NCBI GenBank assembly: GCA_036566745.1
Contig: DATCVR010000339.1
Location: 2,580-66,579, forward strand
Origin: Jiangellaceae bacterium
Lineage (GTDB): Bacteria > Actinomycetota > Actinomycetes > Jiangellales > Jiangellaceae
Direction: 5' to 3'
DNA: 64,000 bases
Made by a program: the position numbers and the translations under genes. Positions 23,091 through 39,756 of this stretch are shown piece by piece. Position 1 is the first letter of the stretch, and each line of letters begins with the position of its first letter. Below the pieces are notes generated by a model that had not been told where the DNA came from, ran no database searches, and was given only the letters and a program-made list of their open reading frames with translations.

Positions 23091-26000
23091 TCACCAGGTC
23101 CGCCGCGCGGCACTCCAGCCGACCTCGCCGAGGTGGAACGCCACCGGGACGGCCGGGGCGTCCGCCTGGTAGAGGACGCTGTCCGTGGCGGCGACGTCGT
23201 GGCGGAACCGCACCCCGGCCTCGACGGCGACGACGTCGGCGCGGCCGGCCCAGTCGCCGAGACCCGCCGCCACCCGGTTCCAGCCCGCCGGCCAGACTCG
23301 CGCGTACCCCACCCGCTCGCCCGCGGTGGCGCTGTGCACGCGCAGGACCAGCTCGGGCCGCATCCCATGTGGCGTGGCCAGGCACAGGTCGACCATCGCG
23401 TAGCCGAACGTCGCCGTGGTCAGGTCGAGTGGCTCCGGGAAGTCGATCCGCAGCAGCTGGGGGACTTCGGCGCCGGTGTCGGTGCGACCCGTCGCCCGGA
23501 CGACCGGCCCGCCGAGCTGCGCGTGATGGACCGGCATGCAGACGATGCCCTCGGGCAGGACGTCGAGGGCGGCGAGGTCGACGGTCGGGGTGAGCGACCC
23601 TGCCTCGACCGCCGCGGCCAGCCAGCCGCCTCCGCCTCGGACGTCGGACGGCACCGGCGCCCGCGCGGGTGCCTGGAACGGCGGCGTCGGCGCAGGTGAC
23701 GATGCAGTCGGCGCGGGCCAGCCGGTCTCGGTGCGGTGGCGTCCGGATCCCAGCTCGACGTCGTCCGTGCCCGGCAGTCGCACCGTCGCCGACGAGCCGA
23801 CCGGCACCTCCACGTCGACGACCAGACGGTCGCCGACGCGCTGCCAGCCGGCCCGGACGGTGCCGCGCACCGTCTCGGTGACCGAGGCCGCCCGGCTCAC
23901 CCCGTCGACCGGCTGCGGAGCGACGACGAACGACCGGAACCCCGGTGCCGACGGCCGCACTCCGACCAGCGTCGTCCACACCCATCCGGCGAACGGTCCG
24001 CCGAGGCCGACGTGGTCGAGCGACCCCGTGCCGGTGTTGCGCGGGTCGATCCACCACGACTCCCAGAGCGTTCCCGGACCGTCGACCAGCATCGCGCCCA
24101 CACCGGGCTGGGCCGGCTGGTGGATCGCGTCGCTGATCGCCTGCGAGCGCCCCACACCGGCCAGCGCCCGCACGACCGTGCTGGTGGCGCCGAAGCCGGT
24201 GGTGATCCGGTTGCCCCGGGCGTGCATGACCTCGGCGACCCGCGCTCCGAGCAGCCGTGCCTCGGCGGGGGTGGCGAGGCCCGCGGCCATCGCCACGCCG
24301 GACGAGCCCTGTGAGCCGTTGCCCCAGGTGCCGCGCTCGGGGTCGTGGAACACCGCGCGCGCGGAGGCTCGCAGGGTGGCCGCCTGGCCTCGCCGGAGCT
24401 CGGCCGCCGGGTCGTCGCCCAGCGCGGCCTCGAGCTCGGCCAGGCTGTCGAGGGCGTCCAGCGCGGCTCCGGTGTGCAGGACCTCCGGCGGGGTCTGTTC
24501 GAGGCCGAGCCAGTCGTGGCCGTAGCTGATCGCGGCCCCGGACACGACGCCGTCGCGGACGAGTCCGAGCTGGTAGTCGGCCCAGCGCCGCAGGCTGTCG
24601 AGGTGGGCCTCGACCACGCTGCGGTCGCCATAGTGGTGCCAGTGGCCGAGCAGGACGCGTTGCAGCGCCGAGCCCCACACCGGGTCCGGCGGCGTCGCGT
24701 CCGGGCGCAGGCTGGGTGCGATGGCGGGGAGGGCGCCGTCGTCGCGCTGGCTCGTAGCGAGGTCGCCCAGCCACTTGCGGTAGAAGCCGGCCAGGTCGAG
24801 GTGGGCGAGCGCGAGGTCGGTGGTGGCCGCGGCGTCGCCGGTCCAGCCCGACTGCTCGCGGGTGGGGCAGTCCTCGGGGATGCCGTGGGCGTTGTTGAGC
24901 TGCGTCCGGGACGCCGCGGCCACGAGCCGTTCGAGCGTGGCGTCGTCACTGCTGAAGCCGGCCAGCCGGGGGAGATCGGAGTGCAGGACCAGCGCGTGGA
25001 CCTCGACCTCGGCGTCGTCGGGCAGCCCGATGACCTCGACGTAGCGGAAGCCGTGGAACGCGAACCACGCCTCGGCCTGCTCGCCCGGGCGCCCGGCGGC
25101 GGTGTACTCGACGGACTGGCGGTGCCGGCCGGTGTCGTAGGGCATCTTCAGGTTGGTGGTGTCCACGCCGCCGTCGGGGTGCAGCAGCTCGCCGTGGACC
25201 AGGGTGAGCGAGGTGCCCGGCGGCAGCGCGCTGTGCAGCGTGAGGCGGCTGCGTCCGGCGATGTTCTCGCCCGCGTCGAAGATCCGGCTCCCCGTGGTGG
25301 TCCGGCGGAGCTCCCGGGTGCCGAGCTCGGCGCCCACCCGGATCGGGGGCGCGGGATCGGGCTCGATCCGGCGCGGAAGCAGGGGCACCGGCTCGGTTCC
25401 CGTCGTCACGCCGGCCGGTCCGAGCACCGTCGCCGGTTCGCCGCCGGACGCGTCGGCGGCGTGCCGGCCGTCGTGGGCTTCGACGTAGAACGCCTCGTCG
25501 ACGACGACCTGGGACCGGCGGGTGCGCCAGCCCGTCCCGGTGCCGGCGCGATGCACCGAGCCGTCGGGCAGCACCGCGACGACCTCGGCGAGAACGCGCG
25601 GATCCAGCCCACTCGCCCGCCAGTGGCTCGCGCCCAGGACCAGCTCGAGGTCGTTCTGGCCCTCGCGCAGCAGATCCGTGACGTCGTAGGTGCGGCTGAG
25701 GGCGCGGACGGGATCGGTGCGCGACGGCTCGGCGGTGCCCGGATTCACCGCCACGCCGCCGATCGAGGCGCGGTACAGACCTTGTCCGGTGACGTGCAGG
25801 CGGGCCCGGATCGGCGCGCCGGGCAGGACGACGACCCCGGTCACGGCGCTGGTCGAGGGTGCGCCGAGCCACGACGCCGACCAGTCCGCCGCGCTGAACG
25901 GCCCGGTCTCGAGCGCCACCGGATCGGCCCAGGGCGACCACGCGTCGTGCTCGTCACACACCCGGACCGTCCACGCCCACCTGCCGTGTGCGGTCAGCTC

Positions 26001-26276
26001 GGCGTCCGGCCGGATCCAGGTCGACTCCGCGGACTCGACCCGGCCGGAACCCCAGGTCAGTTCGGCGCGAGGGCAGCCGCGCGGGTCGAGTCCGTCCGGC
26101 GCGACCCGGATCTCGTACGCGGTCTGGGCCTGTCCGTCGCGCCACAGGGGGACGACCCACGACAGGCGGGGGCGCGGCTCGATCGCGACGTCCACGAACC
26201 GGTCCGGCCGGGCGGGCTGATCCGCGGGCGGACGGTCGTCGACCCGCAACCGGATCGGCGCGGGACTCGACGACAT
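23091..26276 (-). CDS. Alpha-L-rhamnosidase, GH78, with an extra C-terminal module of about 210 aa (no signal peptide)
   Basis: QTAYEIRV...WGSG N-terminal pattern and GIPEDCPTREQSGWTGDAA. ORF trimmed to MSSSPAPIRL at 26276, 2 nt after the upstream stop. Confidence 0.85.
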   Translation of the reverse strand: MSSSPAPIRLRVDDRPPADQPARPDRFVDVAIEPRPRLSWVVPLWRDGQAQTAYEIRVAPDGLDPRGCPRAELTWGSGRVESAESTWIRPDAELTAHGRWAWTVRVCDEHDAWSPWADPVALETGPFSAADWSASWLGAPSTSAVTGVVVLPGAPIRARLHVTGQGLYRASIGGVAVNPGTAEPSRTDPVRALSRTYDVTDLLREGQNDLELVLGASHWRASGLDPRVLAEVVAVLPDGSVHRAGTGTGWRTRRSQVVVDEAFYVEAHDGRHAADASGGEPATVLGPAGVTTGTEPVPLLPRRIEPDPAPPIRVGAELGTRELRRTTTGSRIFDAGENIAGRSRLTLHSALPPGTSLTLVHGELLHPDGGVDTTNLKMPYDTGRHRQSVEYTAAGRPGEQAEAWFAFHGFRYVEVIGLPDDAEVEVHALVLHSDLPRLAGFSSDDATLERLVAAASRTQLNNAHGIPEDCPTREQSGWTGDAAATTDLALAHLDLAGFYRKWLGDLATSQRDDGALPAIAPSLRPDATPPDPVWGSALQRVLLGHWHHYGDRSVVEAHLDSLRRWADYQLGLVRDGVVSGAAISYGHDWLGLEQTPPEVLHTGAALDALDSLAELEAALGDDPAAELRRGQAATLRASARAVFHDPERGTWGNGSQGSSGVAMAAGLATPAEARLLGARVAEVMHARGNRITTGFGATSTVVRALAGVGRSQAISDAIHQPAQPGVGAMLVDGPGTLWESWWIDPRNTGTGSLDHVGLGGPFAGWVWTTLVGVRPSAPGFRSFVVAPQPVDGVSRAASVTETVRGTVRAGWQRVGDRLVVDVEVPVGSSATVRLPGTDDVELGSGRHRTETGWPAPTASSPAPTPPFQAPARAPVPSDVRGGGGWLAAAVEAGSLTPTVDLAALDVLPEGIVCMPVHHAQLGGPVVRATGRTDTGAEVPQLLRIDFPEPLDLTTATFGYAMVDLCLATPHGMRPELVLRVHSATAGERVGYARVWPAGWNRVAAGLGDWAGRADVVAVEAGVRFRHDVAATDSVLYQADAPAVPVAFHLGEVGWSAARRTW

Positions 26277-26278: not shown

Positions 26279-28303
26279 TCAGGCCCCCTGGTCGTCGGCG
26301 AGGAAGGACAGGAGGTTGACCGCGATGGTGTCCGGCATGATCGCCATGCCGCCGTACCTGCCGGTGGTGGAGTTGTGGGTGTCCGGCAGGCACAGGTCGA
26401 ATCGGCCCTCGCGGTAGGCGTCGAGGGTCGCGGGCAGGTTGTGTGGGCGCCACGAGTCGTCGTCATGATCGAGCAGCCAGCGCACCGCGGCCCAGGTGAC
26501 GCCCTTCTGGAAGCGTCGCCAGTCGATCTCCGGATCCGCCTCGGCGAGATCCAGACCATGCGCGATGGCCAGCGCGAATGTCGCCAGCACCTCCCACTGC
26601 ACGTGGTCGCGTACCCAGTGCGCGAAGTACCAGTCCGACGAGCACAGGCAGGGCTTGGTGTTGTAGAGCATCGGGGTGTCGCGCGGCTCCCACAGGTGGG
26701 TGAACGCGAGCAGGGTACGCAGCCAGTGGGCCGCGCGAGCCCGGTACCGGGCGTCGCCGAAGACCCGGTGGCCCAGCTCGTAGGCCACCGCGGCGTGACC
26801 GGCGGCGAGGAGGTTGGGTGCGTGCAGGGGCGTCTCCCAGAAGTCGCCACCCTCGGGCCGGTGCAGGTCGAGGCACGCGTCGAGGGCCCGCCGGGCGCCC
26901 TCGGCGAAGGCCTTGTCGCCGGTGGCGTCGTGCAGCTCGAAGAGCCGGATCGCCGGGGTCATGCTCAGGTCGAGGGCGGTGTCGCCGGCCAGGCCCATCG
27001 GCGCCACGAGGTCGCGCGCCACCACGAAGTCGTCCTTGCTCTTGTGTCGGCCGTCCGGCTCGAAGGCGAAGGTGCCGTCGTCGCGCTGGTGGGACAGCAG
27101 CTCGTGCCCCTCGGCACGCAGTTCGTCGACGCCGGGCTCGACGCGCGGAGGCAGGGTGGCCAGCTGGTCGACCAGGTGCCGGGAATGCGGGCTCTGCGGG
27201 AACCGCTCGACGTAGCCCGCCGCGAACGCGGGCGCGGTGGGACGGACGTCGGTCGGGGTCTGCGCGGGTCCGTAGCCGCGGCCGTCGTGCCAGAGGTGGG
27301 TGGTGACCGCCTCGGCGATGCGGTGCAGGGTCTCCTCCAGCGGCCACCGTGGCGCCGGAGGCTCGGGCAGGCCGTGCCGGAGCACCCAGTCGGTGACGGC
27401 GTCGAGGCTGCGTCCGGCAACGACGCTGATCTCGGCGCCGAGCTCGATCCGCTGGCCCTTGTGCAGTTCCATCGGCGGATCGGCGTGCCAGCCGTCGCCG
27501 GAGAGGTCGCGCGCCTCCGGCAGCATGAGCCCGAGCAGTGAGTTGTCGCGGCGCTCGACCACGTTCGGCGAGGAGAACACCGGCTGGGGGTGCTCGCGGC
27601 TCATGCTGAACCAGCCGGTGGCGTCCTGGTCGGGATCCCACGACAGCGCCACCGCGGTGCCGTGGTGCGACACCGCCATGACCGGCACCGACACCGTCTG
27701 GCGATGGGGGACCGTCCGCATCGCCCACGGGTCGCGGAACCAGTCGGTGCCGCTGGTCCACTCCCGGTCCAGCGCCCACTCGACCCCCGGCAGCAGGGCG
27801 TCGTCGCGGGCCGCTCCGAACGAGCCCTCGCCCACCCGCAGCCAGGGCCCGCGCAGGTAACGCACATAGAGGTCGGCCTGCGACTCCAGCCGATAGTCGA
27901 GCCGGAGCCGGGCCGCCGTGGCGTCGAGGGTGAGGGTGACCCGGCCGGTGATCGCCGGACCGTCGAAGGGCGAGCCGATCCAGCTGCCGAAGGACGTGGT
28001 GCGCAGCGCGTCGGCCACCACCATCGACCGGACCTCGAACGCCAGCTGCTGCTCGCCTTCGGCGCCGGCGCTCGACTCGACCTCGGCCGCCTCCAGCCGC
28101 ACCGGCACCGGCGAGTCCCGCAGCGACAGCTCGCCGAGGTGGTCGAGCACACCCAGCAGGGTGCCGTCCTGAGCGACGAGCTCGGCCCAGCCCCAGCCGG
28201 TGGTGCGGCGGTGCGCCTCCACCCGCAGGGCGTGGTTGGCGATCACCCGCGTGTCGTGTCCGTACACCGCGTGGCGATAGCGCGGCTGGGCCGGGGTCGG
28301 CAT
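26279..28303 (-). CDS. Hypothetical 674-aa cytoplasmic protein with no family assignable by eye (beta-rich N-terminal half, helical repeat/toroid-like C-terminal half)
   Basis: Strong SD (CCAGGAGGCCACGATG), high GC3, tight packing between the amidohydrolase and GH78 genes. The C-terminal half is rich in helical G-x-A-x repeats, plus HQRDDGTFAF. Confidence 0.7.
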   Translation of the reverse strand: MPTPAQPRYRHAVYGHDTRVIANHALRVEAHRRTTGWGWAELVAQDGTLLGVLDHLGELSLRDSPVPVRLEAAEVESSAGAEGEQQLAFEVRSMVVADALRTTSFGSWIGSPFDGPAITGRVTLTLDATAARLRLDYRLESQADLYVRYLRGPWLRVGEGSFGAARDDALLPGVEWALDREWTSGTDWFRDPWAMRTVPHRQTVSVPVMAVSHHGTAVALSWDPDQDATGWFSMSREHPQPVFSSPNVVERRDNSLLGLMLPEARDLSGDGWHADPPMELHKGQRIELGAEISVVAGRSLDAVTDWVLRHGLPEPPAPRWPLEETLHRIAEAVTTHLWHDGRGYGPAQTPTDVRPTAPAFAAGYVERFPQSPHSRHLVDQLATLPPRVEPGVDELRAEGHELLSHQRDDGTFAFEPDGRHKSKDDFVVARDLVAPMGLAGDTALDLSMTPAIRLFELHDATGDKAFAEGARRALDACLDLHRPEGGDFWETPLHAPNLLAAGHAAVAYELGHRVFGDARYRARAAHWLRTLLAFTHLWEPRDTPMLYNTKPCLCSSDWYFAHWVRDHVQWEVLATFALAIAHGLDLAEADPEIDWRRFQKGVTWAAVRWLLDHDDDSWRPHNLPATLDAYREGRFDLCLPDTHNSTTGRYGGMAIMPDTIAVNLLSFLADDQGA

Positions 28304-28351
28304 CGTGGCCTCCTGGGTTCCTGGATCGGGCGGGCGGGGCAGCTGGCCCGG

Positions 28352-29251
28352 TCAGGGGAGCGGCGTGGCAGCGGGCACGGTGGAGGGCCGGCGGGTGCGC
28401 AGGACCTGGTCGAGGGTGCCGCCCAGCACGAGCCCCAGCTCGATCGCGTCCCACCACGGTGAGAGGTCGCGCACGACGGCCAGGGACTGGGTGTACGTGA
28501 GATGGGTGCGCGCGGCCGGGAAGTCCGATCCCCAGGCCAGCCGGTGCGCGCCGAAGGCGTGGGCGATCGGCCGGGTGATCCGCTCACGCGCCTCGGCGTA
28601 CGGAAAGCTCCACGACGGCACCGTCAGGTAGTGGTACCCCGAGATCTTGACGTGCACGTTCGGCAGCTCCGCGAGGGCGAGCAGGGCGGCGAGGTCGGCG
28701 TCGAAGGTGGGCGAGTCCAGCCGGACGCCGCCCTGGTGGTGCAGCAGGATCGGCAGGCTCGGATGACGTCGCGCGACCTCACGCAGCGCGGCGAACCAGG
28801 CCGGCGTCACCGCGAGCGAGGCCACCAGGTCGAGCTCGGCCGCCGCGGCGAAGAACTCCAGCCCGTCGTCGTGGGCGAACCATCCGTCGTCGGTGTCGCC
28901 GACGTAGTGGGTGAACGCGCCCAGCTCGTAGCGCTCGACGCTCTCGCGGAGCCGTTCGGCCGCGCCGGGGCGGTGGTGTTCCGGCCGCCACACGCAGTCG
29001 ACGTCGGCGACCACGACCAGCCGGTCCGGATGCCGGGCGGCCGCCGCGGCGACGTAGTCGTTGTCGTCGTCGTTGGCGAAGTCGGGGCCGATCTCGTGCC
29101 CGATGCGCGCACACACGACGGCCGCGCGTTCGACGTCGTGCCGGTCCATCTCGTAGAGCAGGGCCTCGACGGAGCCCTTGTGGTCGGCGTCGGGTACCCG
29201 CGCGTCGTAGGGCCAGCGTCGCCAGGCATGGCAGTGGCTGTCGAGGATCAC
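28352..29251 (-). CDS. Amidohydrolase-2 family protein (second copy in the window)
   Basis: VILDSHCHAW metal motif, LLHHQGG, WGSDFP. GTG start at 29251 after GAGG. Confidence 0.75.
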   Translation of the reverse strand: MILDSHCHAWRRWPYDARVPDADHKGSVEALLYEMDRHDVERAAVVCARIGHEIGPDFANDDDNDYVAAAAARHPDRLVVVADVDCVWRPEHHRPGAAERLRESVERYELGAFTHYVGDTDDGWFAHDDGLEFFAAAAELDLVASLAVTPAWFAALREVARRHPSLPILLHHQGGVRLDSPTFDADLAALLALAELPNVHVKISGYHYLTVPSWSFPYAEARERITRPIAHAFGAHRLAWGSDFPAARTHLTYTQSLAVVRDLSPWWDAIELGLVLGGTLDQVLRTRRPSTVPAATPLP

Positions 29252-29259
29252 TCGTGGCC

Positions 29260-29592
29260 TCAGATGAGGTGGCGCCGGGCCGCCCAGGCCACGACCTGGA
29301 TGGTGCTGACGACGCCGAGACGGTCGCACATCGCCCGTGAGCGCCGGCGGATGGTGCGGTCGGACAGGTCCAGGCGCCGGGCGATGGCCTCGATGCACAG
29401 GCCGTCGGCGAACAGCGAGAGCAGCGCCAGCTCGTCGACGGTGAAGACGGGCGGACGCGCGCCGTCGGCCGCGGTCACGGTCGAGCCCGCGGCCGGCGCC
29501 GTGTCGCCCTCGAGCGGCGGGCAGACGCGCAGATGCGGGTGTCGGTCCTGCGTGGGGTGGGCCACCGGGGCGGAAGAACGGTTCAGCGTCAT
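29260..29592 (-). CDS. LuxR/GerE-type HTH protein with no receiver or ligand domain (110 aa 'solo' DNA-binding domain)
   Basis: C-terminal FTVDELALLSLFADGLCIEAIARRLDLSDRTIRRRSRAMCDRLGV fits a GerE HTH. The N-terminal 50 aa are low complexity. Confidence 0.6.
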   Translation of the reverse strand: MTLNRSSAPVAHPTQDRHPHLRVCPPLEGDTAPAAGSTVTAADGARPPVFTVDELALLSLFADGLCIEAIARRLDLSDRTIRRRSRAMCDRLGVVSTIQVVAWAARRHLI

Positions 29593-29649
29593 GGCGTCGA
29601 CCTGTTCGGGAGAGCGGATTTTCGCCTGATCTGATGTTTCTCAGGTGTG

Positions 29650-29711
29650 AACGTACGGGGTCTACGCGGTGACGGTCAATCGGTGTTCGGTAACTATTTG
29701 ATACGGTTCAA
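29650..29711 (-). promoter_or_regulatory. Candidate promoter (TTGACC-18-TACGTT on the minus strand) with a weaker operator-like site TTGAACCGTATCAA upstream
   Basis: -35 is the complement of 29674-29679 and -10 the complement of 29650-29655. The 14-mer is the complement of 29698-29711. This is a locally AT-rich gap. Confidence 0.35.
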
Positions 29712-29721
29712 CCAGGTGAAC

Positions 29722-29752
29722 GGCCCCGGCCGCGACGAGCGCGACCGGGGCC
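29722..29752 (-). terminator. Hairpin immediately after the secreted-enzyme gene
   Basis: GGCCCCGGCCGCG (29722-29734) pairs with CGCGACCGGGGCC (29740-29752): 13 bp with one mismatch and a 5-nt loop. Confidence 0.5.
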
Positions 29753-29769
29753 GAATCTGGCCGGCGGGC

Positions 29770-32700
29770 TCAGGCGTCCGCGCCGAACCAGCCGATCGAG
29801 TCGACCTGGAAGTGCGGGTTCCAGGTTGGGTAGTCGGCTCCCACGGCGTGCATGGTCACCTCGACGTGATCGACGGACGAGCGCCCCGCCCAGCCCGAGA
29901 CGTCGAGCGACACCTCGTTCCAGCCGTCCGGCGCGTAGGGCTCGGTGACGGTGAGCGTGTCCGTCCCCGAGGCCAGCGTGAACGTGACCTCGTAGCTCGT
30001 CGCGCCCGGCGCGCCGCCGTAGGAGTTGACGTACGCGACCACCGTCGCCGCGTCGCCGAGGTCGATCGGTTCGGCGGCGTCGACGAACATCGTCTTGGGC
30101 GCCAGCGACGATCCCACCGTCGCGGCCCCGTCCAGGGCGTGCGATCCGCTCTGGGGCGAGCCCGGGCCGTTGGCCGTGGAGGTCACGGCCGCCACCGAGT
30201 CCATGCCCTCACCGGCCTGCCAACCCTGGACCGTGCCGTCGTCGAAGTCGTAGATCGGCGTCGCGACGGGCACCGGCTTGGGCGGGACGTCGACCTTCTC
30301 CGCGTACTGCCGGGTGGCGATCGAGAAGCACATCGTCGGGTCGTACGGGTCGGCCGGCGCGGAGCCGGTGACCGTCACCGTGAAGGTCCGGCTCTCGCCC
30401 GGAGCGAGGCCCTGGGCGCCGAGTTCGGCCGGGCTGACCCGGATCCCGTCGCACGCCTTGACCTCGATCTCCTCCTCGAGCGGGCTGAGGTCGTCGTTGC
30501 GCACCGTGACCTCCACGGACTCGCCCACGCCGATCCCGCCGGTCGCGGCCGCGTCGATCTCGACGTTGACCGCGCGATCGGCACCGGCGAGCTGGCGAGC
30601 CACCTGGACGTCGTCGAGGTCGACGTGTCCGGACCACTCGGCGTTCGTGTCTCCGCGTGCCCAGACCTTGATCCGCGCGATCGAGCTGCGCCCGTCCCAG
30701 CCGGACAGGTCGACGCTGACCCGCTGCCAGTCGCCGTTCTCGGGCAATCGGGCCGTGCCTTCGGCGACGCTGCCATCGGCGCCGTACACCTTGACCTTGG
30801 CGTAGCGGGACCCGATGTCGGCGTCCGCGGGGATTCGCACCCTCAGGCTGAGCGCCGTCGCCGACGACGCGTCGAGCGGCTCGGGGAGGACGACGTCGGT
30901 GCCCCTCCAGAGCTTGGCCAGGTTGGCCGCCATGCCTGCCTCGTAGGTGAAGCTGGTGCGCAGGAATCCGCCGGTGGCCGCCACGGTGTTGGCCGCGTCC
31001 GAGGTCCGCCAGCCCTGGGTGCCGTCGGAGAAGTCGGACACCGTGGTGGTCTTCCTGGGCGTGGCGGTGCTGCTCGCCCCGACCGTCACCGGGAGGTCAC
31101 GTACCGCCAGCGCGTCCGGATCCCAGCCGTCGACCACCTCGGACCAGTCGTCGATCCCGATGACGTCGAGGGCGAAGTCGGTGACCTCGAGCGAGCGCTC
31201 GGTGTCGATGTACTTGAACACGTCGTAGATCAGCTTCTGCTCGGCGGGCGGTGCGGGCGCGTCGACCGTGTCGTCCCACCACCACAGCCCCAGCCGCAGT
31301 CCGCCCTCGACCTTGTGGTCGACGTGGCGGTGCAGGATGAAGGAGTCGATCGCGGGCAGGAAGCGGATCTTGTAGTACGCCAGCGCATAACAGGCGGCCT
31401 GCAGCTTCTCCGCCTCGGCCGACGTCCCCGGGGTGTTGCAGCCCTGCTCGGAGAGGATGACGCGACGCGGCTGGCCGTTGTACAGCTGCTCGTCTCGGAG
31501 CAGGTACTCGTTGAGCACCTCGATGTTCTTGAACGTGATGCGCTCGGTGGTCTCCGGGTCCGGCGTGGCCGTCACGTCCTCCCAGAACGCCGGATCCAGC
31601 AGGTTCTCCGGGTAGGGGTGGTGGGCGATGTACCAGGGGTAATCGCCGTGTGCCTTGGTCAGCGCGTTCAGCCCGTCCACCACGTCGCGGCCCGGATAGA
31701 AGCGTCCGGGCGGGTCGGTCGGTCCGCTGGCGGTGCGCCACGAGTGGGTCAGCGAGGTGTAGGTGCGAGCCTCGTCGTAGGCCGTGCGGGTGGCGAGGTA
31801 GGTGATCCGCAGGGCCCGCTCGTAGGCGAGCAGGAATTCGTCGAGCGTCTTGACTCCCATGTTCTGCCACACCCACTGCGCGTCGACCTCGTTGCCGACG
31901 ATGAAGCCGGTGGCGCGGCCGAACTGCTGGTCCTCGCGGGTGTAGCGCTCGGCCAGGAACTCGATCGCGGCCGTGTAGTACGCCACCCCCTCGGCGGTCT
32001 CGGTGTTGAAGCCGAATACCGGGCCGCCGCTGAGGTCGGCGTCGGGGTGCTTGAGCACCGGCCAGGCGGAGTTGGCCGCCCCGTCGCGGTACAGGATGAG
32101 GATGAGGTTCACCACCGCGCCGTTGTCCGACAGCGGCTTGATCTGGCGGTCGAGTCCGGCCACGGCGTCGGCGTCGAAGTAGTACTCCGTGCCGTTCGAC
32201 GTGAACGGGATCGACTGCCCGTCGCCCTTGTCCTCGAGCTGCATGAGCGAGTTGAACGCGACGTTGATGCCCGCGTGGCCGATGCCCAGCTCCTCGGCGT
32301 CCGCGGTCAGCTGGACCTGCAGCCCCTTCTTGGTGGGGCTGTCGGGATAGGGGAACTGGTTGGTGGAAGTGATCTGGACGTCGTCGACGTAGTGGTACGT
32401 CCCGAGGGCGGCACCGTCGGCGACGGCCAGGTACTTGGCGTAGTAGAGGTCACGCTCGCCCGAGGTGCGGGCGACGTCCGCGCTGAAGGTGCCGTCTGCG
32501 GCGGTCGTGACGGTGGCGACCGGCTCGCCCGAGGCCCACGACGACTCGTCGGCCTCGGTGGCGAGCGCGTAGAGGTCCACGGTCGATCCGGCGGCCGCGA
32601 GGCCCGAGACCGTGACGGCCGCGTCGGTGGCGCGCACGCTCGTCACACCGGTTCCGGCCGCTGCCGGGGAGGCGGGTGGCGCCTCGCCGGCGGTGCTGGT

Positions 32701-32799
32701 GGGTGCGGCGACGGCTGGCGTGCCGGCCAGGGCGCTCCAGCCCAGCGCTAGTGCGAGCAGCGGCGACAACGTGGTGCGGAGGTGACGGGGTCTTCGCAT
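29770..32799 (-). CDS. Secreted multidomain glycoside-hydrolase-like protein (signal peptide, Ig-like domain, clan-GH-A-like TIM barrel, repeated beta-sandwich/CBM-like modules)
   Basis: Signal peptide MRRPRHLRTTLSPLLALALGWSALAGTPAVAA. FIVGNEVD (Asn-Glu acid/base-like) and VILSEQG (nucleophile-like). Two D-F-[SD]-D-G-T-Q-G-W module starts. My recollection is that the barrel resembles Pfam DUF5722 (unverified). Confidence 0.8.
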   Translation of the reverse strand: MRRPRHLRTTLSPLLALALGWSALAGTPAVAAPTSTAGEAPPASPAAAGTGVTSVRATDAAVTVSGLAAAGSTVDLYALATEADESSWASGEPVATVTTAADGTFSADVARTSGERDLYYAKYLAVADGAALGTYHYVDDVQITSTNQFPYPDSPTKKGLQVQLTADAEELGIGHAGINVAFNSLMQLEDKGDGQSIPFTSNGTEYYFDADAVAGLDRQIKPLSDNGAVVNLILILYRDGAANSAWPVLKHPDADLSGGPVFGFNTETAEGVAYYTAAIEFLAERYTREDQQFGRATGFIVGNEVDAQWVWQNMGVKTLDEFLLAYERALRITYLATRTAYDEARTYTSLTHSWRTASGPTDPPGRFYPGRDVVDGLNALTKAHGDYPWYIAHHPYPENLLDPAFWEDVTATPDPETTERITFKNIEVLNEYLLRDEQLYNGQPRRVILSEQGCNTPGTSAEAEKLQAACYALAYYKIRFLPAIDSFILHRHVDHKVEGGLRLGLWWWDDTVDAPAPPAEQKLIYDVFKYIDTERSLEVTDFALDVIGIDDWSEVVDGWDPDALAVRDLPVTVGASSTATPRKTTTVSDFSDGTQGWRTSDAANTVAATGGFLRTSFTYEAGMAANLAKLWRGTDVVLPEPLDASSATALSLRVRIPADADIGSRYAKVKVYGADGSVAEGTARLPENGDWQRVSVDLSGWDGRSSIARIKVWARGDTNAEWSGHVDLDDVQVARQLAGADRAVNVEIDAAATGGIGVGESVEVTVRNDDLSPLEEEIEVKACDGIRVSPAELGAQGLAPGESRTFTVTVTGSAPADPYDPTMCFSIATRQYAEKVDVPPKPVPVATPIYDFDDGTVQGWQAGEGMDSVAAVTSTANGPGSPQSGSHALDGAATVGSSLAPKTMFVDAAEPIDLGDAATVVAYVNSYGGAPGATSYEVTFTLASGTDTLTVTEPYAPDGWNEVSLDVSGWAGRSSVDHVEVTMHAVGADYPTWNPHFQVDSIGWFGADA

Positions 32800-32866: not shown

Positions 32867-33064
32867 CGGTCCGCCGGCCCGGTGACCTGATCCGGTCAGG
32901 TGGCGGGCCGGTGCGGGAGCTCTGGTGGGTGAGCCGCCGCGCCATGCCGGACGACACCTGAGCGGTCCCTGACCGGTACCGGCCGGGGCCTCGCGCGATC
33001 GCGGGACGGCTGCCTAGCGTCGGAGCCGCCGAACCCGTTCACGGACCTCCCGAGGAGACCCACG

Positions 33065-34315
33065 ATGACGAACCCGGTACCGCTCGGACTGGTCGGCTGC
33101 GGCGGCATGGGGCAGCGGCACGTCCTCGGCTACGAGGCGCTGCGGGCCACCGGTCACGCCGCCGTCGAGATCGTGGCCGTGTGCGACACCAACGAGGAGA
33201 ACGCCCGGCGCGCCGCCGCCGAGGTGGCACGGGTGGACGGTCGCACGCCGTCGGTCCATCTCAGCGTGGAGTCCGCCCTCGCCGATCCGGCCATCGCCGC
33301 GTTCGACGTGGTCACCGACGCGAGCAGCCACGTCGGCGTCGTCGTCCCGCTGCTCGAGGCCGGCCGGCATGTCATGTCGGAGAAGCCGCTGGGCCTCACC
33401 GTGCGGTCGTGCCGGCGGATGATCGAGCTGGCGGCGAAGGCCGGCGTCGTGCTGGCCACGGCCGAGAACTACCGGCGCGATCCGGTGAACCGGCTGGCCA
33501 AGGCGGTCGTCGACAGCGGACTCCTGGGTGAGCTGCACCTGATGACCCAGACCGCCGTGGGCGGTGACGACCGTATCGTCATCACGCCGTGGCGGCACCT
33601 CAAGGAGCGCGGCGCCATCGGCCTCGACATGGGCGTGCACCTCACCGACATCGTGCGGTACTACCTCGGCGAGATCGAGAGCGTGTTCGGCCGCGGGCTC
33701 ATCGCCGAGCCGGTGCGCCGCCGCCAGCCCGGGCCGGAGCTCGAGCTGGAGTCCTACCGGGCGCGCTTCGCTGAGATCCCCGAGCAGGTGGTGGCCACGG
33801 GCGAGGACTCGGTGATCGCGATGTACCGGATGCGGTCCGGCGTGAGCGTCACCGTGGCCTACGTGCCGTCCGGGCCCGGGCACTCGTACTGGCAGCGCAC
33901 TGTGCACGGGCGGGCGGGGTCGATGGCGGTCCCGGTGGATCGCAGCGGCGGGCCGGTGGAGGTGCGGCGGGCCGCGGGCGTCCTGCGTGGCCGCGAGCTC
34001 CTCGGCGAGCTCGACGGCTTCGAGCTCGACCGCACCACCGCCGAGCTCTTCGGCCCCGGCGGTGTCACCTACGACCTGGCCTCAGCGCAGGTCGACGCTG
34101 CTCTGCTGGCGATCGAGCTGCAGGACTTCGGCGAGGCGATCCAGGCCGGTCGCCCGCCGGAGGTGGACGGGACCGGAGGGCTGAACGCCGTCGCGGCGGT
34201 GCTCGCGGCGTACGAGTCCGACCGGCTCGGGCGCTCGGTCACGATGTCCGAGGTGCTCGACGGATCCGTCTCGGGCTATCAGGACGAGATCGACGCGGCC
34301 CTGGGCTTGCGGTAG
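33065..34315 (+). CDS. Gfo/Idh/MocA-family oxidoreductase
   Basis: LGLVGCGGMGQRH Rossmann motif and HVMSEKPL. SD GAGGAG upstream. Confidence 0.8.
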   Translation: MTNPVPLGLVGCGGMGQRHVLGYEALRATGHAAVEIVAVCDTNEENARRAAAEVARVDGRTPSVHLSVESALADPAIAAFDVVTDASSHVGVVVPLLEAGRHVMSEKPLGLTVRSCRRMIELAAKAGVVLATAENYRRDPVNRLAKAVVDSGLLGELHLMTQTAVGGDDRIVITPWRHLKERGAIGLDMGVHLTDIVRYYLGEIESVFGRGLIAEPVRRRQPGPELELESYRARFAEIPEQVVATGEDSVIAMYRMRSGVSVTVAYVPSGPGHSYWQRTVHGRAGSMAVPVDRSGGPVEVRRAAGVLRGRELLGELDGFELDRTTAELFGPGGVTYDLASAQVDAALLAIELQDFGEAIQAGRPPEVDGTGGLNAVAAVLAAYESDRLGRSVTMSEVLDGSVSGYQDEIDAALGLR

Positions 34316-35109
34316 CCCGTGCGCACGGCCAGTTCGGAGGCGATGGCGTCGAGGTCGTGGCGGCAGCGGGCGATCCGCTCACGGGTGGCCTGCGACTTGA
34401 GCATGGTCAGGCTGACACCGTGCAGGCCGCGCTGCGGGTCGTCGCTCGGGACCACGCGTCCGACGCAGTACATGCCCTCCAGGGTCTCCTCGTCGTCGAC
34501 CGCGAACCCGTCGGCACGCACCTTCTCCAGCTCGGCCGCCAGCGAGCGCGCATCGGCGATCGAGTGGGGCGTCAGTCGGGGAAGCGGTCCGGAGGCCCGC
34601 AGCCTGGCCTGCACCTCCGGCCACGGCAGCGTGCTGAGCATGGCCTTTCCGGTGGCGGTGGTGGTGGCGACGAGGCGACGGCCGACGTCGGAGGCGATCC
34701 GGACCGGGCCGGTGCCCTCCTTGCGGGCGAGGTACGCGACGTCGAGGCCACGGTCGAGGATGGACAGCTGCACGGTCTCCTGCAGGCCGGGCGCGACTTC
34801 GCGGCAGACGGCGTAGAAGGTCGTGACGATGTCGACCGTGCGCAGGTAGGCGCTGCCGAGCCCGACCAGCCGGTGACCGAGCTGGTAGCCGACGCCCTCG
34901 CGGCGGGCCAGCCCCGACTCCACCAGCGCGTCGCAGATGTAGGCCGCCGACGATTTGGCGATGCCCAGCTCGCGGGCGATCTCGGTGGGGCCGACGGCGT
35001 TGCCCTCGGCGGCGGCGAAGATCTCCAGGATCGCCGCCGCGCGGCTGACCGCAGGCGCGCGGCTGCGTCCGATGTCGAGCGTGGCGCCGGTGGTCGAGGG
35101 TGCGGGCAT
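34279..35109 (-). CDS. IclR-family transcriptional regulator
   Basis: HTH GPTEIARELGIAKSSAAYICDALVESGL plus an IclR effector domain. The 860-aa ORF is trimmed to MPAPSTTG at 35109. Confidence 0.85.
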   Translation of the reverse strand: MPAPSTTGATLDIGRSRAPAVSRAAAILEIFAAAEGNAVGPTEIARELGIAKSSAAYICDALVESGLARREGVGYQLGHRLVGLGSAYLRTVDIVTTFYAVCREVAPGLQETVQLSILDRGLDVAYLARKEGTGPVRIASDVGRRLVATTTATGKAMLSTLPWPEVQARLRASGPLPRLTPHSIADARSLAAELEKVRADGFAVDDEETLEGMYCVGRVVPSDDPQRGLHGVSLTMLKSQATRERIARCRHDLDAIASELAVRTGYRKPRAASISS

Positions 35110-35238
35110 GGCGCTCCCTTCGGAGCAACGTCGGGCAACACGGTGGCGCGGCCGCCGAGGGTGGCCGTGACCGGACACGGTGCTGCGCAGGTCGTGCCGG
35201 CGCGGCAATGATAGGCCGTGTTCATCACCAGGCGTCAT

Positions 35239-35254
35239 GTTCGCTCTAGAGAAC
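35239..35254. promoter_or_regulatory. Imperfect 16-bp palindrome GTTCGCTCTAGAGAAC (candidate IclR operator)
   Basis: 6 of 8 half-site matches around a perfect CTCTAGAG core. It is unusually AT-rich for this genome and lies 11 nt before the ALDH GTG. Confidence 0.3.
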
Positions 35255-35265
35255 GGTCGGACAGA

Positions 35266-36648: not shown

Positions 36649-37202
36649 GCCCGCCGGTCCATCGGGCCGACCGGGCAGACCTGGCCGACCGGGCAGACCG
36701 GGTCGCGGCGCTGCTGGGTGCTCCGGTGCGCCAGCTCGCATTCGTGGTGCGCGATCTCGAGGCGAGCATGCGGTCCTGGGCCGATCTCCTCGACGTCGGC
36801 CCATGGTCGGCGTACCCGCTAGGCCCGCCGCGGTTGCGGGAGATGGTCTACCGCGGCACACCGGCCGAGTTCTCCTTCTGGCACGCCCTGGCGTGGTCGG
36901 GCGAGCTGCAGGTCGAGCTGGTGCAGCCGGTGAGCGGCCCGAGCATCTTCGCCGAGCACCTCGAACGACACGGCGAGGGGATGCACCACGTCGGCGTCGT
37001 CGTGCCGGACCACGCCGCGGCGAGCCGGCTGCTGCTCGCGCGAGGGTTCACGCCCGTGCAGAGCGCCGCCGGGTTCGGCCTCGACGGCAGCGGGCGTTTC
37101 GCCTACTTCGAGCCGCCGCCCGGCCTGGGCATCGTCGTCGAGCTGATCGACCCGCCCGTGGTCCGGGCCGAGCCCGACGCCGTCTACCCGAAGGAGCGCT
37201 GA
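36645..37202 (+). CDS. VOC (glyoxalase/dioxygenase) family protein
   Basis: VRQLAFVVRDLEASM...GEGMHHVGVVVPD...VELI pattern. ATGA overlap with the ALDH stop. Confidence 0.7.
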   Translation: MSPPVHRADRADLADRADRVAALLGAPVRQLAFVVRDLEASMRSWADLLDVGPWSAYPLGPPRLREMVYRGTPAEFSFWHALAWSGELQVELVQPVSGPSIFAEHLERHGEGMHHVGVVVPDHAAASRLLLARGFTPVQSAAGFGLDGSGRFAYFEPPPGLGIVVELIDPPVVRAEPDAVYPKER

Positions 37203-37205
37203 GCG

Positions 37206-39463: not shown

Positions 39464-39756
39464 TCGTCCTGGTCGCCAAGTACTACCTGAAGTCCGTCGA
39501 CGACCTCCCGGCGGTGCGGTCCGCGCTCGAGGAGATGGCCGTGCGAGTCCGGGCCGACGAGCCGGCCTGCACGCTCTACCAGGCCTCGGTGTCGACCGAG
39601 CGTCCCGATCTGGTCATGCTCTACGAGCACTACACCGACGAGGCCGCCTTGCTGGCTCACCGCGAGACCCCGCACTTCGCCGAGCTGGTCGAGGGTCGCG
39701 TGGTGCCGTTGCTCGACCGCCGCGAGCGCGAGGTCTACGAGCTGCTGGTGTCCTGA
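39460..39756 (+). CDS. ABM-domain (dimeric alpha+beta barrel) protein
   Basis: 98 aa with MIVLVAKYYLK...LYEHYTDEAALLAHRETPHF, a typical ABM pattern. ATGA overlap upstream and TGATG overlap downstream. Confidence 0.7.
   Translation: MIVLVAKYYLKSVDDLPAVRSALEEMAVRVRADEPACTLYQASVSTERPDLVMLYEHYTDEAALLAHRETPHFAELVEGRVVPLLDRREREVYELLVS

What the first reader, a model, noticed from the sequence alone, without database searches (positions are those of the whole stretch)
26279..29711. Unusual operon: LuxR-solo HTH, amidohydrolase-2, unknown protein, GH78
Four minus-strand genes are packed with gaps of 8, 48 and 2 nt behind a TTGACC-18-TACGTT promoter, in the most AT-rich gap of the island. The first gene encodes only a GerE/LuxR DNA-binding domain behind a roughly 50-aa low-complexity tail, with no receiver or ligand domain. 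It would therefore be made together with the enzymes it may regulate. An amidohydrolase-2 (metal-dependent lactonase/decarboxylase/hydratase fold) inside a glycosidase operon suggests that a modified or oxidised rhamnoside is processed, such as a lactone, uronate or N-acyl sugar.
Basis: partly seen in the sequence, partly recalled or inferred. Interest (0 to 1): 0.6.

Follow-up and report, generated by a model that had tools for sequence, protein, structure and literature searches.

The report
Rhamnose-glycan operon led by mini regulator
Four tightly packed genes in a soil actinobacterium's rhamnose-utilisation island form a real unit: a tiny DNA-binding protein, a sugar-lactone hydrolase that supplies the step missing from a neighbouring sugar-oxidation pathway, an uncharacterised enzyme-like protein found across many phyla, and a rhamnosidase. 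Most of it is ordinary; the unknown enzyme and the mini regulator are not.

Summary
Four minus-strand genes lie behind TTGACC-18-TACGTT with gaps of 8, 48 and 2 nt: a 110-aa GerE-type HTH, a 299-aa Amidohydro_2, an unknown 674-aa protein and a 1061-aa GH78.

The promoter is preceded by a 14-bp LacI-type palindrome, the same motif found at five other units of this rhamnose island. Palindrome, promoter and leader are conserved with identical spacing in two Haloactinopolyspora genomes. The HTH gene is under purifying selection and sits in rhamnose loci in most relatives where context could be read.

Orthologues of the amidohydrolase lie inside Gfo-VOC-enolase-2-hydroxyacid-DH-[lactonase]-ABM-FAH operons. 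The window's own copy of that operon lacks a lactonase. The nearest structures are COG3618 sugar and aromatic lactonases. It is therefore most likely the lactonase of an oxidative free-sugar pathway, not a rhamnoside-modifying enzyme.

The 674-aa protein has no Pfam, NCBIfam or PDB sequence match. It models as a beta-sandwich plus an (alpha/alpha)6 barrel, and 64% of its well-flanked loci carry rhamnose markers. Distant relatives carry CBM9, dockerin and T9SS modules, so it is a probable new CAZyme family. The scan had already flagged this protein separately in this same window.

The parts
29721..29753 (-). A 14-bp GC-rich hairpin directly after the DUF5722 stop codon. It is probably a U-tract-less terminator or insulator separating the upstream gene from this unit.
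   Evidence: -37.7 kcal/mol for the 61-nt stretch, z -3.0, and 1 of 200 shuffles folds as well. It has no T-run and was not called by the terminator scan.
29698..29711 (.). LacI-type palindrome TTGAACCGTATCAA, a putative RhaR operator. It lies 18 nt upstream of the -35 hexamer, centred near -61.5.
   Evidence: 6 sites matching TTGAAACGTTTCAA within 3 mismatches, against 0.15 expected. The other five lie at promoters of other rhamnose units. The site is conserved with the same 18-nt spacing in Haloactinopolyspora sp. and H. alba. The same motif occurs near LacI genes in loci that have no LuxR-like gene.
29650..29679 (-). Promoter-like TTGACC, 18 nt, TACGTT.
   Evidence: Read directly. The hexamers are identical in two other genomes, with spacers of 18 and 17 nt and divergent flanks. 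Not called by the E. coli-type scan.
29260..29592 (-). A 110-aa stand-alone GerE/LuxR-type HTH protein. Residues 49-110 form the HTH; the N-terminal 48 residues are a variable Pro/Ala-rich tail.
   Evidence: Pfam GerE 25.1 bits. The NarL C-terminal domain is the best PDB match, E 2e-4. 24 small homologues were found, named ones from Haloactinopolyspora and Jiangella, plus a 44%-identical match in Microbacterium. The alignment shows an invariant HTH core. dN/dS is 0.06-0.29.
28352..29251 (-). A 299-aa Amidohydro_2 protein of the COG3618 lactonase type. It is the probable sugar-lactone hydrolase of an oxidative pathway.
   Evidence: PF04909 83 bits. The profile's best PDB hits are 4dlf/4do7, 4i6k and 2ffi. 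The AF2 model has pLDDT 93.5, and Foldseek ranks 4dlf/4do7 first (TM 0.76-0.80), followed by LigI-type lactonases. Synteny. Invariant residues D4, H6, H8, H172 and D243.
26279..28303 (-). A 674-aa protein of an uncharacterised family, modelled as an N-terminal beta-sandwich plus a C-terminal (alpha/alpha)6 barrel. It is a probable new carbohydrate-active enzyme acting on imported oligosaccharides.
   Evidence: No Pfam, NCBIfam or PDB sequence match. Homologues are 50-60% identical across many phyla. AF2 gives pLDDT 80 and pTM 0.85. Weak fold matches to GH94, PL26, PL27, GH116 and GH63. Neighbourhood analysis. Distant relatives carry CBM9, dockerin and T9SS modules.
23091..26276 (-). A 1061-aa divergent GH78 alpha-L-rhamnosidase with no signal peptide. 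Its C-terminal ~120 residues resemble modules of the secreted DUF5722 protein.
   Evidence: Five GH78 Pfam domains. NCBIfam rhamnosidase equivalogs score well below cut-off. The C-terminal module is 31% identical, E 1e-7, to DUF5722 residues 901-1007 and also matches 638-715. The H. alba orthologue is 64% identical.
29770..32799 (-). Context: an upstream secreted DUF5722 protein with its own LacI-type operator at 32822-32835.
   Evidence: It lies adjacent to this unit in J. rhizosphaerae, J. asiatica and Haloactinopolyspora sp..
32933..40826 (+). Context: Gfo/Idh/MocA dehydrogenase, IclR regulator, then ALDH-VOC-enolase-2-hydroxyacid-DH-ABM-FAH. This oxidative sugar-acid pathway lacks its own lactonase.
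   Evidence: Pfam; translations. Orthologous operons in other genomes contain the lactonase.

Best explanation
The cluster is one transcription unit of the LacI-family (RhaR-type) rhamnose regulon of a Jiangellaceae actinobacterium. Its products all lack signal peptides.

Proposed roles (inferred). Rhamnose-containing oligosaccharides are released outside the cell, probably by the secreted DUF5722 enzyme, and imported by the island's ABC system. In the cytoplasm they are trimmed by the GH78 rhamnosidase and by the 674-aa protein, a probable new glycoside hydrolase or lyase with a beta-sandwich plus (alpha/alpha)6 barrel. The Amidohydro_2 protein is a COG3618-type sugar lactonase. It supplies, in trans, the lactone-hydrolysis step that is missing from the neighbouring Gfo-dehydrogenase/enolase-dehydratase/2-hydroxyacid-DH/FAH pathway. 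It does not act on the glycoside itself. The first cistron is a ligand-independent GerE-type HTH protein, so its activity can only be set by its abundance. Because it has its own conserved operator-plus-promoter cassette, it is probably a second-tier regulator of the rhamnose locus, made when the cassette fires.

Shown here: gene order, domain content, fold, conservation and synteny.

Inferred: co-transcription, binding of the LacI protein to the palindrome, the lactone substrate, and the activities of the 674-aa protein and of the HTH protein.
For: Operon architecture and junctions.

No structured elements in the internal gaps, and a strong hairpin only upstream.

The LacI-type palindrome is shared with five other rhamnose units (6 sites against 0.15 expected). 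It also occurs near LacI genes in loci without the HTH gene. Rodionova et al. 2013 (PMC3870299) predicted a LacI-type RhaR in Actinomycetales that co-regulates rhamnose and rhamno-oligosaccharide genes, including rhamnosidases.

Cassette conservation in two further genomes, of Haloactinopolyspora.

Operon ancestry. J. rhizosphaerae has DUF5722 | GerE | Amidohydro_2 | 674-aa. H. alba retains GerE, then a 39-codon remnant of the amidohydrolase, then the GH78 orthologue, then LacI. This implies an ancestral GerE-amidohydrolase-674-GH78 unit.

Lactonase assignment. Orthologues of 44-61% identity are embedded between the enolase, 2-hydroxyacid-DH and ABM/FAH genes in Leifsonia, Actinopolymorpha and two Jiangella genomes, or follow Gfo- and RhmD-like genes in Truepera and Deinococcales. 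The window's own operon lacks such a gene. The structural nearest neighbours are COG3618 lactonases.

The 674-aa protein as a CAZyme: 42 of 66 well-flanked loci hold GH78, GH106, DUF5722 or RhmD-like genes. Bacteroidota and Planctomycetes homologues have signal peptides. Distant homologues are fused to CBM9, dockerin/cohesin and T9SS modules.

The HTH gene is under purifying selection. It lies in rhamnose loci in most relatives where context could be read.
Against: An internal promoter inside a coding region cannot be excluded.

The palindrome sits upstream of the -35, centred near -61.5. At the other island units that have a recognisable promoter it lies just downstream of the -10. Simple repression by a LacI protein is therefore not the obvious mode of action here.

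In three Jiangellaceae genomes the lactonase is adjacent to the 674-aa gene. This leaves room for a direct functional link between the two.

The lactonase scores only 37 bits against the L-fucono-1,5-lactonase equivalog, whose cut-off is 400, so its substrate is unknown.

The window also holds a second Amidohydro_2 gene next to an L-rhamnonate dehydratase (13297-14310), so 'missing lactonase' is not the only possible assignment.

Fold matches of the 674-aa protein are weak (TM 0.2-0.3). No catalytic residues were assigned.

No target site for the HTH protein was found.
Confidence: 0.62

Rival explanations
1. The amidohydrolase acts on a modified or oxidised rhamnoside (a lactone, uronate or N-acyl sugar) within one dedicated glycoside-processing pathway together with the 674-aa protein and GH78. 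The LuxR-like protein regulates exactly this operon.
For: Amidohydro_2 and the 674-aa gene are adjacent in the window, J. rhizosphaerae and J. asiatica, with 48-nt, 4-nt-overlap and about 60-nt junctions. The GerE gene directly precedes the amidohydrolase in three genomes, counting the H. alba remnant. Weak fold and Pfam hints for the 674-aa protein point to uronate-acting enzymes: PL26, PL27 and C5-epimerase C-terminal domain.
Against: Only 4 of 80 loci of the 674-aa family hold an orthologue of this amidohydrolase. Outside Jiangellaceae the amidohydrolase sits inside sugar-acid operons that have neither GH78 nor the 674-aa gene. Its nearest structures are lactonases acting on free lactones. 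The GerE gene is monocistronic, or beside other rhamnose genes, in other genomes.
Confidence: 0.15
2. The four genes are not one operon. The conserved promoter serves only the small HTH gene, and the enzymes are driven by internal promoters or, ancestrally, by read-through from the DUF5722 promoter.
For: In Haloactinopolyspora sp. the same cassette drives a monocistronic HTH gene. In J. asiatica the amidohydrolase start overlaps the DUF5722 stop with no cassette between them, so there the enzymes are expressed from the DUF5722 promoter. The 48-nt gap carries its own strong ribosome-binding site.
Against: An 8-nt and a 2-nt gap leave no room for promoters between genes. No hairpin stands out in the gaps. 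No promoter-like or operator-like site was found inside 23091-29592. In H. alba the GH78 gene is translationally coupled to the amidohydrolase remnant behind the same cassette. A strong hairpin separates DUF5722 from the unit in the window.
Confidence: 0.15
3. The 14-bp palindrome is the binding site of the GerE-type protein itself (auto-activation from a class-I-like position), not of the LacI-family repressor.
For: It is centred near -61.5, upstream of the -35, with an invariant 18-nt spacing in three genomes. That position is typical of activators. GerE/LuxR-type dimers do bind inverted repeats (general knowledge).
Against: The motif has the central-CG form typical of LacI operators, and the same consensus occurs at five other island units in repressor positions. 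It also occurs in loci with a LacI gene but no GerE orthologue: Jiangella G022 locus L104 (four sites) and the Leifsonia operon.
Confidence: 0.08

Closest known systems
Actinobacterial LacI-family RhaR regulon for L-rhamnose and rhamno-oligosaccharide utilisation (Rodionova et al. 2013, PMC3870299)
   Same: A LacI-family regulator gene is present in the locus. Palindromic central-CG operators lie in front of several units. GH78 rhamnosidases, an ABC oligosaccharide importer, RhaI-type isomerase and RhaEW aldolase/dehydrogenase all belong to the same island.
   Different: That study describes no LuxR/GerE-type regulator (0 occurrences of 'LuxR'), no 674-aa family and no lactonase inside a rhamnosidase operon. 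Here the operator of this one unit lies upstream of the -35 rather than over the promoter.
COG3618 lactonases of the amidohydrolase superfamily: L-fucono-1,5-lactonase of Burkholderia multivorans (PDB 4dlf/4do7; Hobbs et al. 2013, cited in PMC13406643) and LigI 2-pyrone-4,6-dicarboxylate lactonase
   Same: The fold is shared (TM 0.76-0.80 to 4dlf/4do7). The N-terminal D-x-H-x-H, a later His and a strand-8 Asp are conserved. The gene associates with a sugar dehydrogenase, an enolase-superfamily dehydratase, a 4-dehydrogenase and an FAH hydrolase, as in the non-phosphorylative L-fucose and L-rhamnose routes.
   Different: It shares only 22-23% identity with 4dlf/4do7 and scores 37 bits against a cut-off of 400 for the fuconolactonase equivalog. 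The substrate is unknown. In this genome the gene is detached from its pathway operon and placed in a glycosidase operon.
GerE of Bacillus subtilis and other stand-alone LuxR-C-type HTH proteins
   Same: It is a small protein consisting essentially of the four-helix LuxR-C/GerE DNA-binding domain, without a receiver or ligand-binding domain.
   Different: It has a 25-60-residue variable Pro/Ala-rich N-terminal tail. Its homologues come from Haloactinopolyspora and Jiangella, plus one Microbacterium match, and it is linked to rhamnose loci. It is not a quorum-sensing 'LuxR solo', because it has no autoinducer-binding domain.
Two-domain beta-sandwich + (alpha/alpha)6-barrel carbohydrate enzymes: GH94 phosphorylases, PL26 exo-rhamnogalacturonan lyase and PL27 L-Rha-alpha-1,4-GlcA lyase (BACCELL_00875)
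   Same: The overall domain order of the 674-aa protein matches. Foldseek E-values are 1e-7 to 1e-5. It occurs in a glycan-degradation context rich in rhamnosidases.
   Different: No sequence similarity is detectable by HMMER to any Pfam, NCBIfam or PDB entry. TM scores are only 0.2-0.3. Catalytic residues were not identified.

Membership tests
GerE / LuxR C-terminal HTH family (PF00196) | A roughly 57-residue four-helix HTH matched above the family's gathering score. | tested here: met
   25.1 bits against a cut-off of 23.5, on residues 50-104. Orthologues score 23.7 bits or are flagged GerE. The NarL C-terminal domain is the best PDB match, E 2e-4.
Quorum-sensing 'LuxR solos' | An N-terminal autoinducer-binding domain, with no cognate LuxI. 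| tested here: not met
   No domain lies N-terminal of residue 49. The tail is variable and Pro/Ala-rich.
NarL/FixJ response regulators | An N-terminal receiver domain with a phospho-acceptor Asp. | tested here: not met
   The protein is 110 aa in total. NCBIfam hits cover only the C-terminal ~60 residues of the response-regulator models.
COG3618 lactonase subgroup of Amidohydro_2 | The PF04909 TIM-barrel fold, with characterised lactonases as nearest structures. | tested here: met
   PF04909 83 bits. Profile-to-PDB best hits are 4dlf, 4i6k and 2ffi. Foldseek ranks 4dlf/4do7, 4i6k, 2ffi and 4d8l at the top, with decarboxylases lower.
COG3618 lactonase subgroup of Amidohydro_2 | Conserved strand-1 HxH, a later His, and a strand-8 Asp. 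| tested here: met
   Invariant D4, H6, H8, H172 and D243 in 26 homologues. Their roles are assigned by analogy only.
COG3618 lactonase subgroup of Amidohydro_2 | Pathway context: sugar 1-dehydrogenase plus acid-sugar dehydratase. | tested here: met
   Orthologues are embedded in Gfo-VOC-enolase-2HADH-[lactonase]-ABM-FAH operons, or follow Gfo- and RhmD-like genes.
L-fucono-1,5-lactonase equivalog (NF052480) | A score above the curated cut-off of 400 bits. | tested here: not met
   37.2 bits. It should not be filed as a fuconolactonase orthologue.
GH78 alpha-L-rhamnosidase | The (alpha/alpha)6 catalytic domain with flanking GH78 beta-domains. | tested here: met
   PF17389 181.6 bits, plus PF25788, PF08531, PF05592 and PF17390. 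Catalytic residues were not checked.
Actinobacterial RhaR (LacI) regulon | A palindromic operator of the locus consensus upstream of the unit, and a LacI-family gene in the locus. | tested here: met
   TTGAACCGTATCAA differs at 2 positions from the consensus. There are 6 sites against 0.15 expected. The LacI gene is at 16180-17436. The H. alba unit ends with a 78%-identical LacI gene.
Actinobacterial RhaR (LacI) regulon | An operator overlapping or downstream of the promoter (repressor geometry). | tested here: not met
   The site lies 18 nt upstream of the -35 in all three genomes. At the other units with a recognisable promoter it follows the -10.
Single operon (one transcript) | Same strand, short gaps, and no terminator between the genes. 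| tested here: met
   Gaps of 8, 48 and 2 nt. Gap folds are not different from shuffles.
Single operon (one transcript) | A transcript spanning all junctions. | not testable with these tools
Any known CAZy, Pfam or NCBIfam family (674-aa protein) | A sequence match to a curated model or a solved structure. | tested here: not met
   No Pfam, NCBIfam or PDB hits for the single sequence or for a 28-sequence profile. Only sub-threshold C5-epim_C (4 of 28 members, E 0.012) and Pec_lyase. The CAZy database itself could not be queried.

The most novel reading that the evidence does not exclude
The unit contains two undescribed components.
(1) The 674-aa protein founds a new family of glycoside hydrolases or lyases. 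The family is widespread: 999 clusters at 50% identity, spanning Actinomycetota, Chloroflexota, Bacteroidota including gut Alistipes, Planctomycetota and Paenibacillus. It would perform a so far unassigned step in breaking down rhamnose-containing, often sulfated, glycans.
(2) The 110-aa GerE-type protein is a ligand-independent second-tier regulator of rhamnose loci. Its conserved cassette places the LacI-type operator at an activator-like position, giving a two-layer circuit not described for rhamnose regulons.
Probability: 0.4. Interest if true: 0.72.

Novelty: new variant of a known kind. Interest (0 to 1): 0.5.

Why it matters
Rhamnose-rich glycans include pectic rhamnogalacturonans, gum arabic, ulvan and rhamnan sulfates, and bacterial exopolysaccharides. 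They are abundant, and several linkages still have no known degrading enzyme.

This unit links a highly conserved, completely unannotated protein family to rhamnosidases, with homologues 50-60% identical across phyla. That gives a concrete candidate and a defined genetic context for enzyme discovery.

It also corrects an attractive but probably wrong reading, that the amidohydrolase acts on a modified rhamnoside. The gene is instead the displaced lactonase of a neighbouring orphan oxidative sugar pathway. This helps complete that pathway's reconstruction.

The small GerE-type gene adds an undescribed regulatory layer to actinobacterial rhamnose regulons.

Tried and rejected
- The generic sigma-70 and terminator scan of 22500-30500 found nothing. 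The promoter call rests on conservation instead.
- Rfam at E <= 1 over 22900-33100 gave no RNA family, so no known riboswitch or leader is present.
- PDB sequence searches with the 674-aa protein alone and as a profile gave nothing meaningful.
- The PDB search with the amidohydrolase sequence alone gave nothing. A profile was needed.
- A literature search for 'DUF5722' returned 0 papers. A search for new rhamnosidase-linked GH families found nothing matching the 674-aa family.
- Exact-sequence look-ups of P0131 and P0153 found no contigs.
- Searching 201 genomes of the class for the lactonase gave only 5 matches. That was too sparse for statistics, so individual loci were examined instead.
- The 599-aa unknown family, the most frequent neighbour of 674-aa homologues elsewhere, was not found in the window's genome assembly, which is 94.6% complete.
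- The conserved 16-nt leader CGAACAGGTCGACGCC was searched in the window. All other near-matches lie in coding sequence and are uninformative.
- I considered an upstream start for the HTH gene, as annotated for the Haloactinopolyspora protein. I rejected it because the window has an in-frame TGA at 29640 with no start codon before 29592, and H. alba has a 1-nt frame shift in the leader.
- I considered the HTH gene being a decayed fragment. I rejected it because of low dN/dS and the conserved promoter.

Full report
OBSERVATION. The window is about 73% GC. The best relatives of its proteins are Jiangella and Haloactinopolyspora, and the genome is a 4.9-Mb, 422-contig assembly of the same GTDB family. 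On the minus strand lie four ORFs with strong GC3 periodicity:
- 29260-29592, 110 aa, ATG start
- 28352-29251, 299 aa, GTG start
- 26279-28303, 674 aa
- 23091-26276, 1061 aa

The gaps are 8, 48 and 2 nt. The 48-nt gap carries an AGGAGG ribosome-binding site. Pfam gives GerE (25.1 bits, cut-off 23.5, residues 50-104 only), Amidohydro_2 (83 bits), nothing, and a full five-domain GH78 set. None of the four products starts with a signal peptide. TTGACC (29679-29674), an 18-nt spacer and TACGTT (29655-29650) are present. The intergenic stretch is the lowest-GC point of the 20-36 kb region.

CONTEXT. The window is a rhamnose island. It holds:
- a second GH78
- two L-rhamnonate dehydratases, both above the NCBIfam cut-off
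- a second Amidohydro_2
- LacI, AraC and IclR regulators
- two Gfo/Idh/MocA dehydrogenases
- an ALDH-VOC-enolase-2-hydroxyacid-DH-ABM-FAH operon
- ABC permeases and a binding protein
- a RhaI-like isomerase and a RhaEW-type aldolase/dehydrogenase fusion
- upstream on the same strand, a secreted 1009-aa DUF5722 protein

REGULATORY REGION. Following that lead, I searched the palindrome TTGAAACGTTTCAA and found six sites within 3 mismatches, against 0.15 expected.

The whole cassette recurs in two other genomes: palindrome, 18 nt, TTGACC, 17-18 nt, TACGTT, and a leader ending CGAACAGGTCGACGCC-ATG. It is found in Haloactinopolyspora sp. and in H. alba, while the bases between the elements diverge. 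That is a phylogenetic footprint for a real promoter and operator.

The same palindrome occurs next to LacI genes in loci that have no GerE orthologue: four sites in a Jiangella locus and one upstream of a Leifsonia operon. I therefore assign it to the LacI-family regulator. This agrees with the predicted LacI-type RhaR of Actinomycetales, which co-regulates rhamnose and rhamno-oligosaccharide genes (PMC3870299). That paper mentions no LuxR-type regulator.

One oddity remains. At the other island units with a recognisable promoter (rhmD2-gfo, rhaEW, the permease genes and rhaI) the operator follows the -10. Here it sits upstream of the -35, centred near -61.5, an activator-like or roadblock position, and this placement is conserved.

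A 14-bp GC hairpin follows the DUF5722 stop (z -3.0). The internal gaps show no unusual structure. No Rfam family matches.

THE SMALL HTH PROTEIN. Its homologues are few (24), small, and, where named, from Haloactinopolyspora and Jiangella. A separate tblastn match (44% identity) lies in a Microbacterium locus. The conserved part is the C-terminal 62 residues, a canonical LuxR-C/GerE four-helix HTH. The N-terminal tail is variable. dN/dS over the HTH is 0.06-0.29, so the gene is translated and constrained.

An upstream start is excluded in the window by an in-frame TGA at 29640. The 1-nt indel in the H. alba leader shows that the leader is conserved as DNA or RNA, not as protein.

The gene's position varies but usually stays inside rhamnose loci:
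- after DUF5722 in the window, J. rhizosphaerae and Haloactinopolyspora sp. (monocistronic in the last, followed by a convergent GntR gene)
- before GH78-LacI in H. alba
- after rhaEW in two further family members
- near a GH78 in another
- between gfo and DUF5722 in Microbacterium

. For three further relatives the context was uninformative or could not be read. In J. asiatica the cassette is absent at this position. There the TTG start of the amidohydrolase overlaps the DUF5722 stop.

The protein is not a quorum-sensing LuxR solo and not a response regulator. It resembles GerE-type stand-alone HTH proteins, whose activity is set by their amount.

THE AMIDOHYDROLASE. By sequence it is a distant Amidohydro_2. 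It scores 37 bits against the L-fucono-1,5-lactonase equivalog (cut-off 400) and has no single-sequence PDB hit. A 26-sequence profile finds 4dlf/4do7, 4i6k and 2ffi. A confident AF2 model (pLDDT 93.5) has 4dlf/4do7 as nearest structures, with TM 0.76-0.80. These entries are the Burkholderia multivorans COG3618 enzyme, characterised as L-fucono-1,5-lactonase by Hobbs et al. 2013 (cited in PMC13406643). LigI-type lactonases come next, and decarboxylases and hydratases rank lower. D4, H6, H8, H172 and D243 are invariant.

Synteny is decisive. In Leifsonia sp. Root112D2 and Actinopolymorpha singaporensis the orthologue (55-61% identity) lies inside Gfo-VOC-enolase-2-hydroxyacid-DH-[Amidohydro_2]-ABM-FAH(-ALDH). 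In two Jiangella genomes it lies between the enolase and the 2-hydroxyacid dehydrogenase. The flanking genes are the orthologues (47-62% identity) of the window's genes at 32933-40826. In the window's own copy of that operon the enolase and dehydrogenase genes overlap by 4 nt, and no lactonase is present. In Truepera and a Deinococcales genome the orthologue follows Gfo- and RhmD-like genes.

Only 4 of 80 loci of the 674-aa family hold this amidohydrolase. The parsimonious reading is a sugar-lactone hydrolase of an oxidative, non-phosphorylative route, analogous to the LRA and L-fucose routes, whose gene has been relocated into this unit. It is not an enzyme acting on a modified rhamnoside. 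The sugar is not identified.

THE 674-aa PROTEIN. It has no Pfam, NCBIfam or PDB sequence match, even as a profile. Homologues are 50-60% identical from Actinomycetota to Chloroflexota, Planctomycetota, Bacteroidota (including gut Alistipes), Deinococcota and Paenibacillus.

AF2 (pLDDT 80, pTM 0.85) gives an N-terminal beta-sandwich and a C-terminal (alpha/alpha)6 barrel. Foldseek gives significant E-values but low TM (0.2-0.3) to GH94 phosphorylases, PL26, PL27, GH116 and GH63.

In 80 loci the recurrent neighbours are:
- GH78 (25 loci)
- an unknown 599-aa family (23)
- sulfatases (16)
- Gfo-type dehydrogenases (15)
- DUF5722 (14)
- GH106 (12)
- RhmD-like dehydratases (12)

Of the 66 loci that are at least 12 kb long, 42 hold a rhamnose marker. 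Bacteroidota and Planctomycetes homologues carry signal peptides, while Gram-positive and Chloroflexota ones do not. That is the usual pattern for oligosaccharide-processing enzymes.

An exhaustive profile search finds 999 clusters at 50% identity. These include many 1000-1800-aa proteins in which the core (profile positions 115-610) is joined to CBM9, NPCBM-associated, dockerin/cohesin, T9SS sorting, CARDB and Big_1 modules. So the core behaves as a catalytic module of carbohydrate-active enzymes. It is a probable new CAZyme family, and its reaction is unknown. The scan had already flagged this protein separately in this same window.

GH78 AND OPERON ANCESTRY. The GH78 is divergent: it scores 181 bits on the catalytic domain, against 367 for the island's other GH78. 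Its C-terminal ~120 residues are 31% identical to two modules of the secreted DUF5722 protein, which hints at a shared glycan target.

In H. alba the cassette and HTH gene are followed by a 39-codon remnant of the amidohydrolase N-terminus (VICDSHGHAWRR...). Its stop overlaps (GTGA) the start of the GH78 orthologue (64% identity), and a 78%-identical LacI gene follows. This implies an ancestral GerE-lactonase-674-GH78 unit like the window's, with a later deletion. It also shows that the GH78 there depends on the cassette's promoter. J. rhizosphaerae keeps GerE-lactonase-674 without the GH78.

VERDICT. The enzymological interpretation needs revising. The unit is a lineage-specific variant of the known LacI/RhaR rhamnose regulon.

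It combines three things:
- an ordinary rhamnosidase
- a displaced pathway lactonase
- two components that are not ordinary: an unannotated, very widespread CAZyme-like family, and a small GerE-type regulator with a conserved, oddly positioned operator cassette

Interest is moderate (0.5), and most of it rests on those last two components.

Noticed in passing
L096:1199-1319 (Haloactinopolyspora alba PYGE01000022.1): A 39-codon remnant of the amidohydrolase N-terminus (VICDSHGHAWRRRPYDA...) lies between the GerE-type gene and the GH78 orthologue. Its TGA overlaps the GH78 GTG start (GTGA). This implies deletion of most of the amidohydrolase and all of the 674-aa gene from an ancestral four-gene unit.
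   Followed up: partly
L001:3405-3412 (Jiangella asiatica): The DUF5722 stop codon overlaps the TTG start of the amidohydrolase (gTTGAtc). The whole operator, promoter and GerE cassette (about 0.5 kb) is absent at this position, so the cassette behaves as a discrete insertion or deletion module.
   Followed up: partly
window 29698-29711 versus 20729-20742, 47065-47078, 43008-43021 and 40838-40850: The same LacI-type palindrome lies just downstream of the -10 at those four other island units. At the GerE unit it lies 18 nt upstream of the -35 (centre near -61.5), and this placement is conserved in three genomes. It could mean activation, a roadblock to read-through from DUF5722, or looping.
   Followed up: partly
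window 29593-29608; L089:6264-6279; L096:878-893: A 16-nt leader, CGAACAGGTCGACGCC, abuts the ATG of the GerE-type gene and is identical in three genomes. A 1-nt indel in H. alba shows it is not conserved as coding sequence. Its function is unknown; it may be a ribosome-binding region or a regulatory site.
   Followed up: partly
window 23094-23460 and 29773-30100 / 30650-30890: The C-terminal ~120 residues of the cytoplasmic GH78 are 31% identical (E 1e-7) to two repeated C-terminal modules of the secreted DUF5722 protein. They have no Pfam model and may form a shared carbohydrate-binding module.
   Followed up: partly
L008:8157-9956 and 22 other loci: A 599-aa protein family without any Pfam match is the most frequent close neighbour of 674-aa homologues: 23 of 80 loci, 17 of them within 3 kb. 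Two further unannotated neighbour families (representatives of 317 and 592 aa) look related to it. The 599-aa family was not found in the window's own genome assembly.
   Followed up: partly
P0294, P0350, P0406 and about 100 other proteins: Proteins of 1000-1800 aa share the core of the 674-aa family (profile positions 115-610). They add CBM9, NPCBM-associated, dockerin plus cohesin, T9SS sorting, CARDB or Big_1 modules. This is a second, secreted branch of the superfamily.
   Followed up: partly
window 32933-40826: The neighbouring Gfo / IclR / ALDH-VOC-enolase-2HADH-ABM-FAH set is the same pathway as in Leifsonia, Actinopolymorpha and Jiangella, but it lacks the lactonase those operons carry. 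Its lactonase and the rest of the pathway appear to be under different regulators (LacI-type site versus IclR).
   Followed up: partly
window about 45875-46200: An ORF starting MPRVCFLSRIKPDRLEEYRARH... lies upstream of the SDR gene and looks like an L-rhamnose mutarotase. This is from memory of the family and was not checked with a profile.
   Followed up: no
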